Of a stretch of 64,000 nt of DNA, positions 28,956 to 64,000 are shown piece after piece. Origin of the DNA: an uncultured delta proteobacterium (lineage in GTDB: Bacteria > Desulfobacterota > Desulfobaccia > Desulfobaccales > 0-14-0-80-60-11); contig CAWETI010000002.1 of the NCBI GenBank assembly GCA_963812015.1, positions 96,001-160,000 of the forward strand, read 5' to 3'. The notes under the pieces were generated by a model. The model did not search any database and was not told the DNA's origin. It saw only the letters and a list, made by a program, of their open reading frames with translations. The position numbers were made by a program, and so were the translations under genes. Within the stretch, counting starts at the first letter, position 1. Every line of letters begins with the position of its first letter.

Positions 28956-29031
28956 GGGGATGTAGCTCAGCTGGAAGAGCGCCTGCTTCGCATGTAGGAG
29001 GTCAGGGGTTCGAGTCCCCTCATCTCCACCA
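28956..29031 (+). tRNA. tRNA-Ala (anticodon CGC)
   Basis: 76-nt cloverleaf GGGGATG...CATCTCC ACCA with G3:U70, D-arm TAGCTCAGCTGG, anticodon loop TTCGCAT and T-loop TTCGAGT. Confidence 0.97.
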
Positions 29032-61666: not shown

Positions 61667-61748
61667 GGATTCCCCTTCCTTCAGCCTAATATAACATTTT
61701 AACTAATTTATCTTCCTTGATGCAATTGTTTCCCGACCCGGTACTGTC

Positions 61749-62567
61749 CTAATTTGCCAATTCCAAAAGCTCCGAGATGGTCCACAGACGGTTAGTTACC
61801 CCCGCTTCCATAGCTGGGGTAACTCGAAGTGAACTATGAACCCGGACAAAGTTATAATGAGCAAAGTGAAGGGCAACCGCCGCTTTGAGATTGTCCAGCT
61901 TCTTGCTAAAGGCATTGGTTAGCCTGGTGAAGCGACGCATCTGCATCCGCATGGTAAGGTTTTGCCGTTCCACGTATGAGGTTGAGATATTGGATTTCTT
62001 GGGATTGCCGAGAATAACCGTGCGCTCCGCACTAACCACGTGCGGAGGCGAATACCTACCAGCGCCCATCGGCTCCGCTTCGTATGTTTTTACCACTTGT
62101 CCGTAGTCTATCCCTGCCCCAAAAGTGTCCTCCACGGCATCGACATAGGCTTTAAGGCCATCACTGCTTAACTGGACCCGATTATCAAGCCTACCTGAAA
62201 GATCAGAAATGAAAGCATAGACATTATCAATTGTCCGTTTCCCCACTAAATAAGATGGTATCAATTTGCTTTCTGCGTCTAGGGCCACGAACACCCATTG
62301 GTCGCCGAAATCAGGATCATCGGTATCCTTAAGATGGCGCTGTTTCTTCCCGACAAAGCACCAGATTTCGTCAACCTGAACGGTCTGGCATTTCAGGTTC
62401 TTCATATAGGAGTCCATAAGGTTAGCGCAGCCTTGCCCCACTCGATATCCAAGGCGCATGATGGTATCGCGGTGAATCCCGGTCATGCGTTCGACTGAGC
62501 GGATTGAAGCACCTTCCACCAAGGCCGCTATCGCCGTTTCCTGTTTTTCTCGCCTTAAGACATTCAT
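61749..62567 (-). CDS. IS1-family DDE transposase with N-terminal HTH
   Basis: EGASIRSVERMTGIH..TI (HTH), VDEIWCFVGKK, SSDG...Y and TSYVERQNLTMR...RRF.R.T.AFSKK. Confidence 0.88.
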   Translation of the reverse strand: MNVLRREKQETAIAALVEGASIRSVERMTGIHRDTIMRLGYRVGQGCANLMDSYMKNLKCQTVQVDEIWCFVGKKQRHLKDTDDPDFGDQWVFVALDAESKLIPSYLVGKRTIDNVYAFISDLSGRLDNRVQLSSDGLKAYVDAVEDTFGAGIDYGQVVKTYEAEPMGAGRYSPPHVVSAERTVILGNPKKSNISTSYVERQNLTMRMQMRRFTRLTNAFSKKLDNLKAAVALHFAHYNFVRVHSSLRVTPAMEAGVTNRLWTISELLELAN

Positions 62568-62581
62568 CTCGGAATTTCCTG

Positions 62582-62610
62582 TTGACTAATGGGTAAATAC
62601 TTGCTATCTT
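62582..62610 (+). promoter_or_regulatory. outward-facing sigma70-type promoter next to the transposase start
   Basis: TTGACT-17 bp-TATCTT with TG one base before the -10 (extended -10). Confidence 0.55.
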
Positions 62611-62619
62611 GAACGAAAG

Positions 62620-62687
62620 TGGAGCGCCGGGGAATCGAACCCCGCCCGGAATGGGTGTAAGGGCCTCCTGGGAACCAATCGCGCCCC
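62620..62687 (-). ncRNA. candidate tRNA(Ala)/tmRNA-like mini RNA (68 nt)
   Basis: GGGGCGC/GCGCTCC acceptor stem with G3:U70 and A discriminator, perfect T-arm CGGGG-TTCGATT-CCCCG. No D-stem and no canonical anticodon arm. Confidence 0.55.
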
Positions 62688-62801
62688 ACGAATCGCCACG
62701 GCCTCATAGCCTAATCGCTGCCAACGACTACCAGGGTATGGGGCCTTGCTTTTGCGGTCCCTGCCAGGGCGATTCAAGGCCGACAGGAACCAAGTCTCTT
62801 C

Positions 62802-63296
62802 TCATATTTCACCTCCTTTTGCGGGCGGAGGCCCAACCTGAGTTGTTCTCTGAATATTCTTCCAAGTCCCCCTGCTAATGTTCTTGAAGAGTTTAGGTTT
62901 CCTTTGTAACGCACTCCTGATTACTTCCTGGGGATGATTTTGGCTTAATTTCCACCCTCTCTCCCGAAATTCAGCGACGATTTCCTTGATCTTCATGGGG
63001 CGCTTATATGTGTCAAAAATCATGGATATTCCCTTTTCGACCGGAATTTCAATGAGCTTGGTCTCCATTTTGGGTGGGATCGCGGCCGATAAATCAATTT
63101 CATCTGCAAATGGATCAATGCCCAGGTAAAGACGGTTATGAATCTGATTAATAAGAGATTTTATCCAATCACAATCGTTTTTTAGGGTCTCAAGTTTTGG
63201 TTCAAGTTCCTTAATTTCATTAAGTTTACTTTCAAGCTCATCCTCTAAGTTAGCGAGAGCCTTTGATAAACTTTGACGGGTAGCTTCTTCAAGCAT
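62802..63296 (-). CDS. hypothetical protein: coiled coil + C-terminal winged helix
   Basis: Heptad-rich N-terminus and RPMKIKEI...GW.......IRSAL.R...F.....GTW. Start placed at ATG 63296 after a G-rich RBS. Confidence 0.6.
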   Translation of the reverse strand: MLEEATRQSLSKALANLEDELESKLNEIKELEPKLETLKNDCDWIKSLINQIHNRLYLGIDPFADEIDLSAAIPPKMETKLIEIPVEKGISMIFDTYKRPMKIKEIVAEFRERGWKLSQNHPQEVIRSALQRKPKLFKNISRGTWKNIQRTTQVGPPPAKGGEI

Positions 63297-63465
63297 AAGA
63301 TGCCCCCCTATGCCGCTGTAAACTTCTTGATCTTCAAGAACTTTCCTGATATATACGAGATGCTTAATATTAGGCCATAAAATTTTATTGTCAATAAAAA
63401 AAGCGACTAAAAAAGCGAATATTTTTTTTGCGGATAGTCTATTTTTTTGAAAGCGTGGCCAGCGC

Positions 63466-63762
63466 ATGAGTAAAGGCTTAAAACATATTGTGGAGAAAAT
63501 ATGCGGTTGTCCCGCATCTTTTTTAGAAGATGTGGTTGTTGTTGAGAGCTTCGGGGGGCAAACCGTTTGGAGCGGTGTCGTATCCATTTTTAACCTCCAA
63601 GACCATCCGCAGGCCGATAAATGTTATGCTTGGTCATCTCCGATAGAGAGGAGCAGAAAGCGGAAATATTATGCCGTCCTTCATATCCCACCAATTGATT
63701 CCCCGGAAAAGGCTGTCAGGGCCTCCATTGTCCACGATCATAAGACGGAGAAATTGAATTAG
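63466..63762 (+). CDS. hypothetical protein (98 aa)
   Basis: Clean ORF with globular composition (TVWSGVV..F.L..HP....CYAWS...AVLH.PP..SP..AV.A.I). Confidence 0.65.
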   Translation: MSKGLKHIVEKICGCPASFLEDVVVVESFGGQTVWSGVVSIFNLQDHPQADKCYAWSSPIERSRKRKYYAVLHIPPIDSPEKAVRASIVHDHKTEKLN

Positions 63763-64000
63763 CCCTACACCTTGTGATTTCCTTATTGTCAAATTGCATT
63801 GACCTATCTCCAGCGGTAAGGTGATTTTTAGATTTCATAAATATAATCTCGGGGGTTGAGTGCCTTATGTCGGCAAAAAGGATATTCATCGCCCTAATAG
63901 TCTTGATTGCCGTTTCCCTTTGTCTTTCGGCATGGTCAGAACCAAATCCCAAACAGCCCATATCGCAAGGTAAAAGCGGCAAGTTGGCCGCACAGAAAAC

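What the first reader, a model, noticed from the sequence alone, without database searches (positions are those of the whole stretch)
62620..62687. tRNA(Ala)/tmRNA-mimic mini RNA upstream of an IS1-family transposase
Seen (minus strand): GGGGCGC GAUUGGUU CCCAGGAG-GCCCUUACACCCA-UUCCGGG CGGGG-UUCGAUU-CCCCG GCGCUCC A. It has a 7-bp acceptor stem with G3:U70 and A73, a perfect T-arm, an unpaired D-loop-like strand and one bulged helix. It ends 52 nt before the transposase ATG on the same strand, and CCA is not encoded (ACT follows). Known: G3:U70 is the AlaRS identity element, and acceptor + stemless D-loop + helix + T-arm is the tmRNA tRNA-like-domain layout. Because both acceptor halves are present, it is not simply a 3' att fragment. 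Inference: an element-encoded tRNA mimic that directs RNase P/Z processing of the transposase mRNA, decoys SmpB/AlaRS or anticodon nucleases, or regulates transposition.
Basis: partly seen in the sequence, partly recalled or inferred. Interest (0 to 1): 0.75.

Follow-up and report, generated by a model that had tools for sequence, protein, structure and literature searches.

The report
Transposon-borne tRNA matching its transposase codon
A 3.1-kb jumping gene carries its own odd, alanine-marked tRNA-like RNA just in front of its transposase gene, and the RNA's loop matches one strictly kept valine codon inside that gene, which suggests that the element controls, or even alters, its own transposase through a private tRNA.

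Summary
Window 62687-62620 (minus strand) is a 68-nt tRNA-like RNA with a 7-bp acceptor stem, G3:U70, A73 and a canonical T-arm, ending 52 nt before the transposase ATG.

- **Not chance, and not a deleted host gene.** It differs from the host tmRNA and tRNA-Ala.
- **Conserved.** It lies 30-69 nt upstream of the transposase in 23 of 80 related genome loci. In an RNA-seeded metagenome scan, 35 of 45 assessable tRNA-like loci also carry the transposase.
- **Structure supported.** Compensatory changes support its helices and a pseudoknotted leader upstream of it. G3:U70 is kept in 27 of 27 copies.
- **Real mobile unit.** It is a 3,132-bp IS1-like transposon (inverted repeats, 8-bp target duplication, empty site in congeners) with passenger genes.
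- **New result.** The loop core reads as a valine anticodon: UAC in 22 loci, GAC and AAC in one each. Transposase codon V159 is GTA in 22 of 22 UAC loci and in 29 of 29 metagenome loci, but GTT and GTC in the two variants. GTA is depleted elsewhere in the gene.

Best reading: an element-encoded irregular tRNA, cut out of the transposase leader, that decodes this one codon. Its acceptor marks predict alanine.

Processing, charging and decoding are all untested. The scan noted the same family earlier on other DNA (e1-7673396, e1-7746965, e1-6713720).

The parts
61740..64000 (-). IS1-like transposon. The whole element is 61740-64871 (3,132 bp), so it runs 871 bp past the window end. The transposase-side inverted repeat GGTACTGTCCTAATTTG is at 61740-61756. 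One copy of the 8-bp target duplication CCCGACCC is at 61732-61739; the other lies just beyond 64871.
   Evidence: In four same-genus genomes the epimerase and OEP genes are about 130 nt apart, which shows the empty site. The inverted ends and direct repeat were read. The same inverted repeat plus 8-bp duplications occur in L013, L015 and L034. The region has low GC and is single copy in the genome.
61749..62567 (-). Single-ORF DDE transposase, 272 aa, distantly IS1-like
   Evidence: Pfam DDE_Tnp_IS1 scores 36.4 bits against a cut-off of 24.1. NCBIfam IS1 scores 62 bits, below its cut-off of 100. A genome scan confirmed 553 relatives.
62091..62093 (-). GTA codon for Val159 in the motif DYGQ(V/I)VK. 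This is the codon that matches the tRNA-like loop.
   Evidence: The codon is GTA in 22 of 22 UAC-loop loci, GTC in L024 (loop AAC) and GTT in L030 (loop GAC). It is the most codon-conserved of 81 columns tested. It is GTA in 29 of 29 metagenome loci.
62582..62610 (+). Sigma-70-like promoter pointing antisense into the tRNA-like RNA (TTGACT-17-TATCTT, TG-extended), in the spacer between the tRNA-like RNA and the ATG
   Evidence: Consensus scan. Equivalent antisense sites occur at the same place in L016, L034 and L011 but not in L025, L057 or L019. This rests on a consensus match only.
62620..62687 (-). The flagged 68-nt tRNA-like RNA: acceptor with G3:U70 and A73, D-like strand GAUUGGUU, irregular 8-9-bp central helix with loop CCCUUACAC, no variable loop, and a T-arm
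   Evidence: (92.4 bits to model R1)
62690..62815 (-). Structured leader. It holds an SD-like GGAGG plus AUG AGA AGA (AUG at 62805-62803), hairpin P1 (62791-62780 with 62767-62756), and hairpin P2 (62745-62734 with 62711-62700). The P1 loop GAAUCGCC (62775-62768) pairs with GGCGAUUC (62697-62690), forming a pseudoknot that encloses P2.
   Evidence: Alignment of 24 leaders. Changes on both sides occur in 12 of 12 P1 pairs, 5 of 8 pseudoknot pairs and 10 of 12 P2 pairs; 0 of 500 shuffles score as high. The long-range arms also appear as repeat I12.
62802..63296 (-). Passenger ORF of 164 aa (coiled coil plus a weak HARE-HTH match). Its stop codon overlaps the leader AUG.
   Evidence: HARE-HTH E = 6e-4, below the cut-off. 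Homologues occur only in L095 and L096.
63367..63394 (-). Promoter-like site TTGACA-16-TAATAT that could drive ORF164, the leader, the tRNA-like RNA and the transposase as one transcript
   Evidence: 10 of 12 matches. No sense-strand promoter-like site was found between it and the transposase ATG. Inference only.
63466..63762 (+). p98, a conserved 98-aa protein of unknown function, divergent from the transposase. It is the second core gene of this transposon family.
   Evidence: tblastn finds it in 46 of 80 loci, on the strand opposite to the transposase in 45 of them. It is 47% identical to the L034 copy. The AlphaFold model has pLDDT 90.6. No significant fold, Pfam or PADLOC match was found.

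Best explanation
The flagged RNA is an irregular tRNA gene carried by an IS1-like transposon.

1. It is transcribed on the same strand as the transposase, directly upstream of it and behind a pseudoknotted leader.
2. The host tRNA-processing enzymes (RNase P at G1; RNase Z or exonucleases plus the CCA-adding enzyme at A73) most likely cut it out. This also sets the 5' end of the transposase mRNA.
3. Its acceptor stem carries the alanine identity set (G1:C72, G2:C71, G3:U70, mostly G4:C69, A73).
4. Its loop presents a valine-family anticodon: UAC here, GAC or AAC in two relatives.
5. That anticodon is matched to a single, strictly kept codon (Val159, GUA) in the element's own transposase, and the same codon is avoided elsewhere in that gene.

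So the element supplies a private decoder for one codon of its transposase. Either it gates how much transposase is made, or, if it is charged with alanine as the acceptor marks predict, it yields a Val159Ala isoform in proportion to the element's own transcription.

Shown here: conservation, structure, the transposon boundaries and the codon-loop covariation. Inferred: excision, charging, decoding and the regulatory outcome.
For: **Conservation with the transposase**
- The RNA is present in 23 of 80 protein-seeded genome loci, always 30-69 nt upstream on the same strand.
- In the RNA-seeded metagenome scan, 35 of 45 assessable tRNA-like loci have the transposase downstream.
- On the transposase tree the tRNA-like rows cluster: 21 of a 22-row clade, with L015 as a loss. 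This is a quick tree with SH-aLRT 84.

**Structure**
- 13 of 18 pairs show changes on both sides, with 0 of 500 shuffles as high.
- G3:U70 is kept in 27 of 27 copies and A73 in 26 of 27, while pairs 4-7 turn over.
- The T-loop is UUCRANN and the D strand holds GG.
- Members of 70-71 nt have a 3-4-bp D hairpin plus a 9-bp anticodon-type stem, so the two arms have lengths like those of a tRNA.
- 5 of 27 copies encode CCA, as do 16 of 49 metagenome copies.

**Codon match**
- V159 is GTA in 22 of 22 UAC loci, GTT in L030 (GAC) and GTC in L024 (AAC).
- Relatives without the RNA use GTT 28 times, GTA 8 times and other codons 21 times, out of 57.
- This is the highest codon conservation among 81 conserved columns (0.92; the next is 0.76), while neighbouring synonymous sites vary.
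- V159 is GTA in 29 of 29 further metagenome loci.
- GTA elsewhere in the transposase is 19 of 481 Val codons, against 147 of 1249 in relatives without the RNA (Fisher p = 1.4e-7, uncorrected for phylogeny).
- In L024 and L030 most other Val codons are GTA (15 of 23 and 10 of 19 Val codons in all).
- L015, which lost the RNA, has CTA at this site.

**Transcription**
- No sense-strand promoter-like site lies between the upstream promoter-like site and the ATG.
- RNA-library contigs of 85-95% relatives bridge the tRNA-like RNA and the 5' part of the transposase gene.
Against: - **Loop register.** In the 7-nt-loop members, nearest-neighbour folding puts UAC one nucleotide 3' of the canonical anticodon position (loop N-U-U-U-A-C-A). 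ARAGORN accordingly reads L057 as UUA and L038 as CUA. The window copy has a 9-nt loop, a degenerate D region and two mismatches in P2.
- **Thin covariation.** Only two non-UAC variants support it, and they are sister rows on the tree. AAC with GUC needs inosine or a mismatch.
- **Statistics.** The Fisher tests ignore relatedness.
- **p98 is not depleted.** In the same elements p98 has 50 GTA of 211 Val codons. This sits awkwardly with alanine insertion at every GUA.
- **The host can read GUA anyway.** It has its own tRNA-Val(UAC).
- **No relative has Ala at 159.** None of 57 relatives without the RNA does.
- **The RNA is dispensable in places.** One close relative (L015) lacks it, and 10 of 45 RNA-seeded loci have the RNA without a detectable transposase.
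- **No direct evidence** of processing, CCA addition, charging or ribosomal use. The RNA data are contigs of relatives, which cannot show RNA ends or strand and may include DNA.
Confidence: 0.55

Rival explanations
1. Valine-charged private tRNA acting as a rare-codon gate, in the manner of bldA. The RNA is charged by ValRS through A35, C36 and A73 (identity elements recalled from the literature). It raises decoding of the rare GUA at V159, and of the GUA-rich p98, so the protein sequence is unchanged and only the rate is controlled.
For: - All three loop variants are valine anticodons, and residue 159 is Val in most relatives without the RNA.
- GUA is the rarest host Val codon, at about 9.5% on a crude count.
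- p98 of the same elements is GTA-rich, with 50 of 211 Val codons.
Against: - G3:U70, G2:C71 and A73 are invariant or nearly so while the neighbouring pairs covary. That is the AlaRS set, and ValRS has no need of it.
- The host already has tRNA-Val(UAC).
Confidence: 0.22
2. A processing signal only. The tRNA shape serves as an RNase P/RNase Z punctuation mark that separates the passenger and leader RNA from the transposase mRNA, as with mascRNA or mitochondrial tRNA punctuation (recalled). This would set the mRNA's 5' end and stability, and the excised RNA would have no role in translation.
For: - The position in the leader is fixed at 30-69 nt before the ATG.
- It appears to be co-transcribed with the transposase.
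- Standard tRNA detectors fail on it.
- It gives a weak match to the mascRNA model, 23.6 bits.
- A compact pseudoknotted domain lies directly 5' of the cleavage site.
Against: This does not explain why the alanine identity pairs are invariant. It also does not explain why the loop is the best-conserved internal part, or why it covaries with codon 159.
Confidence: 0.15
3. A decoy or mimic acting in trans. Candidates are a tmRNA-TLD mimic that binds SmpB or enters stalled ribosomes, a decoy for tRNA-targeting toxins or defence nucleases carried as cargo, or a nonsense suppressor (UUA/CUA reading of the loop).
For: - The best Rfam match is to the two ends of the tmRNA model.
- ARAGORN reads L057 as UUA and L038 as CUA.
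- Some transposase-less copies lie beside DUF5343 (a PADLOC candidate) and methyltransferase genes.
- Published irregular tRNAs lie near toxin-antitoxin systems (PMC5389517, section 16 read).
Against: - There are no recurrent in-frame stops in the transposase or p98. Only L117 (TAA) and L068 (TAG) have one.
- The UUA/UAA/UGA reading of the loop variants makes an incoherent set, whereas the NAC reading gives valine anticodons throughout.
- There is no mRNA-like domain.
Confidence: 0.06
4. A decayed relic of a captured tRNA or tmRNA gene, an att-site remnant, or a chance fold with no function.
For: The folding energy is not better than that of shuffles. The window copy has a degenerate D region.
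Against: Compensatory changes occur across several phyla, and the G:U pair is strictly kept. The sequence differs from the host tmRNA and tRNA-Ala.
Confidence: 0.02

Closest known systems
tmRNA tRNA-like domain (Rfam RF00023); the jakobid mitochondrial tmRNA reduced to the TLD is recalled, not tested
   Same: A 7-bp acceptor with G3:U70 and A73, a canonical T-arm, a D stem replaced by an unpaired GG-containing strand, and a helix leaving the junction. It is the best Rfam match.
   Different: No tag ORF and no tmRNA pseudoknots (324 model positions are missing). The score of 25.7 is below the gathering score of 47. The central helix ends in an anticodon-like loop that covaries with a codon. It is encoded in a transposon. 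The host's own tmRNA has a different sequence.
Allo-tRNAs and other irregular tRNAs from soil and sediment bacteria (Mukai et al. 2017, PMC5389517; sections 13, 14 and 16 and passages of 15 read)
   Same: Non-canonical tRNAs from Acidobacteria and Deltaproteobacteria-type metagenomes. Some have G3:U70 with non-alanine anticodons and are charged with Ala in E. coli. They occur in polycistrons and are reported near toxin-antitoxin systems and a transposon-related ORF.
   Different: Allo-tRNAs have 8/4 or 9/3 acceptor/T branches, a long variable arm and a long D stem. This RNA is 7/5 (perhaps 8/4 in L032 and L045), has no variable loop and has a reduced D arm. A search of the paper's held supplement for the loop motif, 'transposase' and 'IS1' found nothing. 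That paper reports no matched codon in a neighbouring gene.
bldA tRNA-Leu(UAA) and rare TTA codons in Streptomyces regulators (recalled, no call)
   Same: It works alike: a dedicated tRNA paired with a rare codon kept in a specific regulatory target gene.
   Different: bldA is a canonical, cognately charged chromosomal tRNA. Here the tRNA is irregular, carries acceptor marks for one amino acid and an anticodon for another, and sits in the same mobile element and transcript as its target.
tRNA-like processing signals: MALAT1/mascRNA, mitochondrial tRNA punctuation, tRNAs embedded in bacterial operons (recalled; mascRNA model RF01684 tested)
   Same: A tRNA shape inside a longer transcript that would recruit RNase P and RNase Z, with a compact structured domain directly upstream of the cut.
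   Different: The mascRNA model scores 23.6, below its gathering score of 42.5. Those signals need neither an aminoacylation identity set nor an anticodon.
IS1 family, including members with passenger genes (the ISfinder ISMhu11 group is recalled; my search for 'ISMhu11' found 0 papers)
   Same: A DDE_Tnp_IS1 domain, short terminal inverted repeats beginning GGT, and 8-bp target duplications.
   Different: The transposase is a single ORF only distantly related to IS1 (NCBIfam score below its cut-off). The element also has a conserved divergent 98-aa gene and, in one clade, a structured leader plus the tRNA-like gene. My searches found neither described.

Membership tests
tmRNA (RF00023) | tRNA-like domain: acceptor with G3:U70 and A73, plus a T-arm | tested here: met
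   Both ends of the model align.
tmRNA (RF00023) | mRNA-like domain with a tag reading frame and pseudoknots; score at or above gathering (47 bits) | tested here: not met
   324 model positions are replaced by 21 nt, and the score is 25.7 bits. Relatives score 17.6-32 bits. ARAGORN finds no tmRNA.
Canonical tRNA (RF00005, ARAGORN) | Cloverleaf with a D arm, a 5-bp anticodon stem, a 7-nt loop and a variable loop; detector score above threshold | tested here: not met
   Neither ARAGORN nor Rfam at gathering thresholds calls the window copy. Of the 22 tRNA-like-bearing loci among the 60 scanned, ARAGORN calls only L057 (tta) and L038 (cta). Folds show a 9-bp stem and no variable loop.
tRNA-Ala identity (AlaRS substrates) | G3:U70 wobble pair with A73, G2:C71 and G4:C69 (the set is recalled; G3:U70 is cited in PMC5389517, section 15) | tested here: met
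   G3:U70 in 27 of 27 copies and A73 in 26 of 27. G1:C72 and G2:C71 in 25 of 25 distinct rows, and G4:C69 in 23 of 25.
tRNA-Ala identity (AlaRS substrates) | Actual aminoacylation with alanine | not testable with these tools
   Needs an in vitro AlaRS assay or acid-gel analysis.
Allo-tRNA (Mukai 2017) | 8/4 or 9/3 acceptor/T branch, a long variable arm and a long D stem with a tetraloop | tested here: not met
   The arrangement is 7/5 with no variable arm. L032 and L045 may be 8/4 (read).
IS1-family transposable element | DDE transposase of the IS1 type | tested here: inconclusive
   Pfam PF03400 scores 36.4, above its cut-off of 24.1. NCBIfam IS1 scores 62, below its cut-off of 100.
IS1-family transposable element | Terminal inverted repeats and a short target-site duplication around a discrete insertion | tested here: met
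   Empty site in 4 congeners; inverted repeats GGTACTGTCC.../...GGACAGTACC; 8-bp duplication. The same is seen in L013, L015 and L034.
Dedicated tRNA with a rare-codon regulatory pair (bldA-like; works-like, not a family) | Anticodon matched to a codon that is kept in the target gene and avoided elsewhere | tested here: met
   The matching codon occupies V159 in 24 of 24 loci (22 GTA; GTT and GTC in the two variants). GTA elsewhere is 4.0% of Val codons, against 11.8% in relatives without the RNA. Decoding itself was not tested.

The most novel reading that the evidence does not exclude
The transposon practises programmed, self-inflicted mistranslation. Its own tRNA-like RNA is charged with alanine (G3:U70) but reads the single GUA codon at position 159 of the transposase. 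It competes there with the host tRNA-Val, so cells make a mixture of Val159 and Ala159 transposase. The ratio would track the element's own transcription. One isoform could act as regulator or inhibitor, giving copy-number or dose control. The antisense promoter and the stalling-prone leader ORF (AUG AGA AGA) would add further layers of control.
Probability: 0.3. Interest if true: 0.95.

Novelty: new variant of a known kind. Interest (0 to 1): 0.8.

Why it matters
Insertion sequences are known to restrain their transposases by frameshifting, antisense RNAs, occlusion of the ribosome-binding site and inhibitor proteins. A transposon that brings its own tRNA, matched to one codon of its own transposase, would be a further layer of control.

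Because the acceptor marks say alanine and the anticodon says valine, this could be a natural case of targeted, element-encoded recoding. It would also give a function to at least one class of the 'irregular tRNAs' that metagenomics keeps finding near mobile and toxin-antitoxin genes.

On the practical side:
- The family is missed by ARAGORN and Rfam, so it goes unannotated in many genomes across several phyla.
- The hypothesis is directly testable with a few constructs and mass spectrometry.
- A compact tRNA with a 9-bp anticodon stem and no variable loop that is still accepted by the ribosome would interest tRNA engineers.

Tried and rejected
- **Internally deleted host tmRNA or tRNA-Ala.** Rejected. 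The acceptor stem, T stem and T loop all differ.
- **A 1.08-kb IS bounded at the start of the leader.** Rejected. No inverted repeat lies there, and the empty-site comparison gives a 3.13-kb element.
- **The conserved ATGAG as the stop codon of an upstream passenger ORF.** A long ORF ends there in only 3 of 22 loci. A conserved leader peptide is also unlikely, because its length ranges from 11 to 80 aa.
- **Nonsense suppressor for the element's own genes.** The transposase and p98 lack recurrent in-frame stops.
- **Loop pairing with a complementary site in the element.** For L010, L011 and L013 no consistent complement was found. The script then failed and the test was not continued.
- **A sense promoter in the spacer.** None was found in the window.
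- **p98 function.** No significant match in Pfam, PADLOC, the protein atlas, Foldseek or VIA (best Z 4.8).
- **RNA evidence.** Four wetland metatranscriptomes held only 4-9% of the sampled words. When laid, they gave contigs of relatives (only 4 of the 62 laid pieces reach 95% likeness or more, none 99%) that cannot show ends, strand or level. One adapter-flanked contig of about 150 nt spans the tRNA-like RNA, but it may come from a single fragment.
- **The scan's own index by sequence** returned nothing.
- **Literature searches** for this association found nothing. One search returned 0 papers, one search returned 1 unrelated paper, one search returned 0, and searches gave listings only.
Full report
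**1. The observation**

- The acceptor stem is GGGGCGC/GCGCUCC, with G3:U70 and discriminator A73.
- An 8-nt unpaired strand, GAUUGGUU, follows the acceptor 5' arm.
- The central helix is irregular and closes the loop CCCUUACAC.
- No variable loop separates that helix from the T-arm CGGGG-UUCGAUU-CCCCG.
- CUU follows A73, so no CCA is encoded.
- The transposase ATG (62567) lies 52 nt downstream.

Standard detectors miss it. ARAGORN and Rfam at gathering thresholds report only a normal tRNA-Ala(CGC) at 28956-29031. The folding energy is no better than that of shuffled sequence: z = -0.22, and 82 of 200 shuffles fold at least as well. A permissive Rfam search aligns both ends of the tmRNA model to it, with 324 internal model positions replaced by 21 nt. 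The score is 25.7 bits against a gathering score of 47. There is also a weak match to mascRNA at 23.6 bits.

**2. Not a host-gene derivative**

The host's real tmRNA lies on contigs C3 and C5. Its acceptor stem, T stem and T loop differ from those of the flagged RNA. The window's tRNA-Ala differs as well. The region is single copy in the genome. A covariance model built from the family finds no second strong copy; the best other hit scores 20 bits.

**3. Conservation and structure**

Distribution:
- A scan of species-representative genomes with the transposase protein confirmed 553 relatives, and the best 80 loci were kept.
- In 23 of these 80 loci the same kind of tRNA-like RNA lies 30-69 nt upstream of the ATG on the same strand.
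- Six of 100 relatives' genomes carry the 121-nt region at 85-92% identity. None of the 17 same-genus genomes does.

Covariation on a model-based alignment of 27 copies (25 distinct):
- 92.3% of cells are paired.
- 13 of 18 pairs show changes on both sides.
- 0 of 500 shuffles reach the observed values.
- Versions with the partner slid by 1-3 columns give 47-64% paired.

Identity marks:
- G1:C72 and G2:C71 never vary.
- G3:U70 is kept in 27 of 27 copies once three shifted rows are re-registered, and A73 in 26 of 27.
- Pairs 4-7 change by double substitutions.

Shape:
- Members of 70-71 nt fold with a 3-4-bp D hairpin and a 9-bp anticodon-type stem closing a 7-nt loop. They have no variable loop.
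- The window's 68-nt class has a degenerate D region and a 9-nt loop.
- Five of 27 copies encode CCA.

**4. A structured leader**

Conservation starts about 130 nt upstream of the tRNA-like RNA.

An alignment of 24 leaders supports three helices:
- a 12-bp hairpin P1, with changes on both sides in 12 of 12 pairs;
- a 12-bp hairpin P2, with such changes in 10 of 12 pairs;
- a long-range helix between the P1 loop (GAAUCGCC) and GGCGAUUC just 5' of the tRNA-like RNA, with such changes in 5 of 8 pairs. This forms a pseudoknot enclosing P2.

No shuffle of 500 reached the observed covariation. The many G:U pairs show that the structure is selected on the transposase strand.

The leader opens with an SD-like GGAGG and AUG AGA AGA (ATG in 20 of 22 loci). 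The frame that follows varies from 11 to 80 codons, so a conserved peptide is unlikely.

**5. What the mobile element is**

- Four same-genus genomes have the flanking epimerase and OEP genes about 130 nt apart.
- Comparison with them shows a 3,132-bp insertion at window 61740-64871, which runs past the window end.
- The insertion has inverted ends GGTACTGTCC.../...GGACAGTACC and an 8-bp direct repeat CCCGACCC.
- The same 17-nt inverted repeat and 8-bp duplications bound elements of 3,309, 3,216 and 2,672 bp in L013, L015 and L034.
- The transposase is distantly IS1-like: Pfam is above its cut-off, NCBIfam below.

So this is an IS1-like transposon with passenger genes, not a compact IS.

A second core gene, p98 (63466-63762, plus strand), is found in 46 of 80 loci and is divergent from the transposase in 45 of them. 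Its model is confident (pLDDT 90.6), but it has no significant fold or family match.

In the window, a promoter-like site at 63394-63367 precedes ORF164, the leader, the tRNA-like RNA and the transposase. No further sense-strand promoter-like site was found.

**6. Reciprocal test from the RNA side**

- A degenerate DNA pattern for the loop, T-arm and 3' acceptor strand was scanned over metagenome contigs.
- Many of these are ordinary tRNA-Val(UAC) genes.
- The family model scores 29 bits or more in 46 loci.
- Of the 45 loci with enough downstream sequence, 35 have the transposase on the same strand and 10 do not.
- Some of those 10 lie beside DUF5343, MT-A70 or other methyltransferase genes.
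- Three loci carry two tRNA-like genes in tandem.
- On a quick transposase tree the tRNA-like-bearing rows cluster. Twenty-one fall in one 22-row clade whose odd member, L015, lacks the RNA. Hosts span several phyla.

**7. The codon-loop match**

A look-up of this scan's earlier notes gave a lead: other agents had noted GUA codons in transposases beside similar RNAs. I tested this on my own loci.

The loop:
- Its core is Y-U-U-A-C-A.
- Read as N-A-C, it is UAC in 22 of 24 loci, GAC in L030 (loop CUUGACA) and AAC in L024 (loop GUUAACG). All three are valine anticodons.

The codon for Val159 (motif DYGQ(V/I)VK; window 62093-62091):
- It is GTA in 22 of 22 UAC loci, GTT in L030 and GTC in L024.
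- The 57 relatives without the RNA use GTT 28 times, GTA 8 times and other codons 21 times.
- Neighbouring synonymous sites vary freely.
- Among 81 columns with a conserved amino acid of four or more codons, this one has the highest codon conservation, 0.92 against 0.76 for the next.
- All 29 metagenome transposases that cover the site have GTA. Their loops were fixed as UAC by my pattern, so this replicates the codon side only.

GTA elsewhere:

| Gene set | GTA / Val codons | Share |
|---|---|---|
| Transposase outside codon 159, UAC loci | 19 / 481 | 4.0% |
| Transposase outside codon 159, relatives without the RNA | 147 / 1249 | 11.8% |
| p98 of the same UAC elements | 50 / 211 | 24% |

- The first two rows differ at Fisher p = 1.4e-7, not corrected for phylogeny.
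- L024 and L030 use GTA for 15 of 23 and 10 of 19 Val codons overall, but not at 159.
- L015, which lost the RNA, has CTA at the site.
- The host has tRNA-Val with TAC, GAC and CAC anticodons, and GTA is its rarest Val codon (crude count).

**8. Interpretation**

Shown:
- The RNA is a conserved, structured, element-encoded tRNA-like gene.
- Its loop covaries with one codon of the adjacent transposase.

Three-base complementarity is meaningful only on the ribosome, so the simplest reading is that the RNA decodes that codon.

The inferred steps are:
- excision by RNase P and 3' processing;
- CCA addition;
- charging;
- use by EF-Tu and the ribosome.

The acceptor marks predict alanine. The A35-C36-A73 combination could also allow valine (identity rules recalled). 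The two outcomes differ:
- alanine would recode Val159 to Ala in a fraction of molecules;
- valine would make the RNA a private supplier for a rare gating codon.

Points against the decoding reading:
- The thermodynamic loop register places UAC one position 3' of the canonical site. ARAGORN accordingly reads UUA or CUA in the two relatives it calls.
- Only two related variants support the covariation.
- AAC with GUC needs inosine.
- p98 is not depleted of GTA.
- No relative has Ala at 159.
- The host can read GUA without help.

**9. Other layers**

- A sigma-70-like promoter on the opposite strand lies in the spacer at 62582-62610. It would start an RNA antisense to the tRNA-like RNA.
- Equivalent sites occur in L016, L034 and L011 but not in L025, L057 or L019. 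That is 4 of the 7 regions examined, against 0.1-0.8 sites expected per 300-nt region of the six loci (3.4 for the 2.3-kb window region).
- RNA-library contigs from four wetland studies contain relatives (only 4 of the 62 laid pieces reach 95% likeness or more, none 99%). Some bridge the tRNA-like RNA and the 5' part of the transposase gene. Contigs cannot show ends, strand or level.

**10. Literature**

- Searches for tRNA-like RNAs with IS1 or other transposases found nothing relevant. One search returned 0 papers. One search returned 1 unrelated paper (listing only). One search returned 0. Searches gave listings.
- The closest published kin are the allo-tRNAs and irregular tRNAs of Mukai et al. 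2017 (PMC5389517). I read sections 13, 14 and 16 and passages of section 15. The held supplement has no hit for the loop motif, 'transposase' or 'IS1'.
- I also read passages of the review PMC7609411.
- Allo-tRNAs differ in architecture, and no matched target codon was reported for them.
- bioRxiv supplements and subscription journals could not be checked.

**11. Verdict**

The finding is real. What lies there is a transposon-borne irregular tRNA with hybrid identity, matched to one codon of its own transposase. This is a new variant of known kinds (mobile-element tRNAs, and dedicated tRNA and rare-codon pairs). The same scan has already noted it on other DNA.

Noticed in passing
window 63466-63762 (+): p98, a 98-aa protein conserved in 46 of 80 related transposon loci and divergent from the transposase in 45 of them. 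Its alpha-beta4-alpha model is confident, but it has no family or fold match. It looks like a second core gene of this transposon family.
   Followed up: partly
window 62582-62610 (+); L016 2491-2464, L034 2501-2473, L011 2486-2458 (all antisense to the transposase): A conserved sigma-70-like promoter in the spacer that would fire antisense into the tRNA-like RNA. The two conserved spacer motifs are its -35 and -10 elements. It was seen in 4 of the 7 regions examined.
   Followed up: partly
window 62816-62797 (-); L054, L072, L075, L079, L081, L086, L087 about 130-145 nt upstream of the ATG: The leaders begin with an SD plus a short ORF rich in stalling-prone codons. In this clade it is AUG AGA AGA. 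In an Acidobacteria clade that lacks the tRNA-like RNA it is AUG CCG CCG CCA CC(A), encoding MPPPP, and two hairpins follow. This may be a translation-sensing attenuator.
   Followed up: no
L135 1093-1160 and 1173-1240; L107 1078-1149 and 1172-1239; L151 491-559 and 568-635: Tandem pairs of G3:U70 tRNA-like genes upstream of the transposase (none was detected in L151). The upstream members have other loops (for example GUCAGCA and CUUUAGA), and several encode CCA. Their target codons were not examined.
   Followed up: no
L051 2228-2303; L059 2289-2361: In two long-branch relatives a different, full cloverleaf tRNA-like gene lies 140-200 nt upstream of the transposase. ARAGORN gives its anticodon as ACU, and it lacks G3:U70. 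This suggests independent recruitment of tRNA shapes.
   Followed up: no
L161 400-1137, L176 405-1118 (DUF5343); L151 1017-1646 (MT-A70); L124: Copies of the tRNA-like RNA without a detectable transposase lie next to DUF5343 proteins (weak match to PADLOC candidate PDC-M34A) or DNA methyltransferase genes.
   Followed up: partly
G000:C2:162695-162870 (outside the window): A repeat of about 175 bp with dozens of copies at 72-94% identity across contigs C2 and C3. It looks like a MITE-like or REP-like family.
   Followed up: no
G000:C3:2000863-2000977 (+): A 115-nt stretch that scores 21 bits against the tmRNA model and ends in ...CUCCACCA. ARAGORN calls nothing there. It remains unexplained.
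   Followed up: partly
G000:C3:1901-2247 and C5:25265-25611: Two identical copies of the host tmRNA gene on different contigs. This is probably assembly redundancy; the genome's contamination estimate is 5.7%.
   Followed up: no
own genome (ARAGORN list): One tRNA was called with a four-base anticodon (ggtg) and an undetermined amino acid. Its location was not looked up.
   Followed up: no
L095 797-869: In a relative's copy of the island, a second small tRNA-like sequence (73 nt, 7-bp acceptor, T-arm) lies about 670 nt upstream of the main tRNA-like RNA.
   Followed up: no
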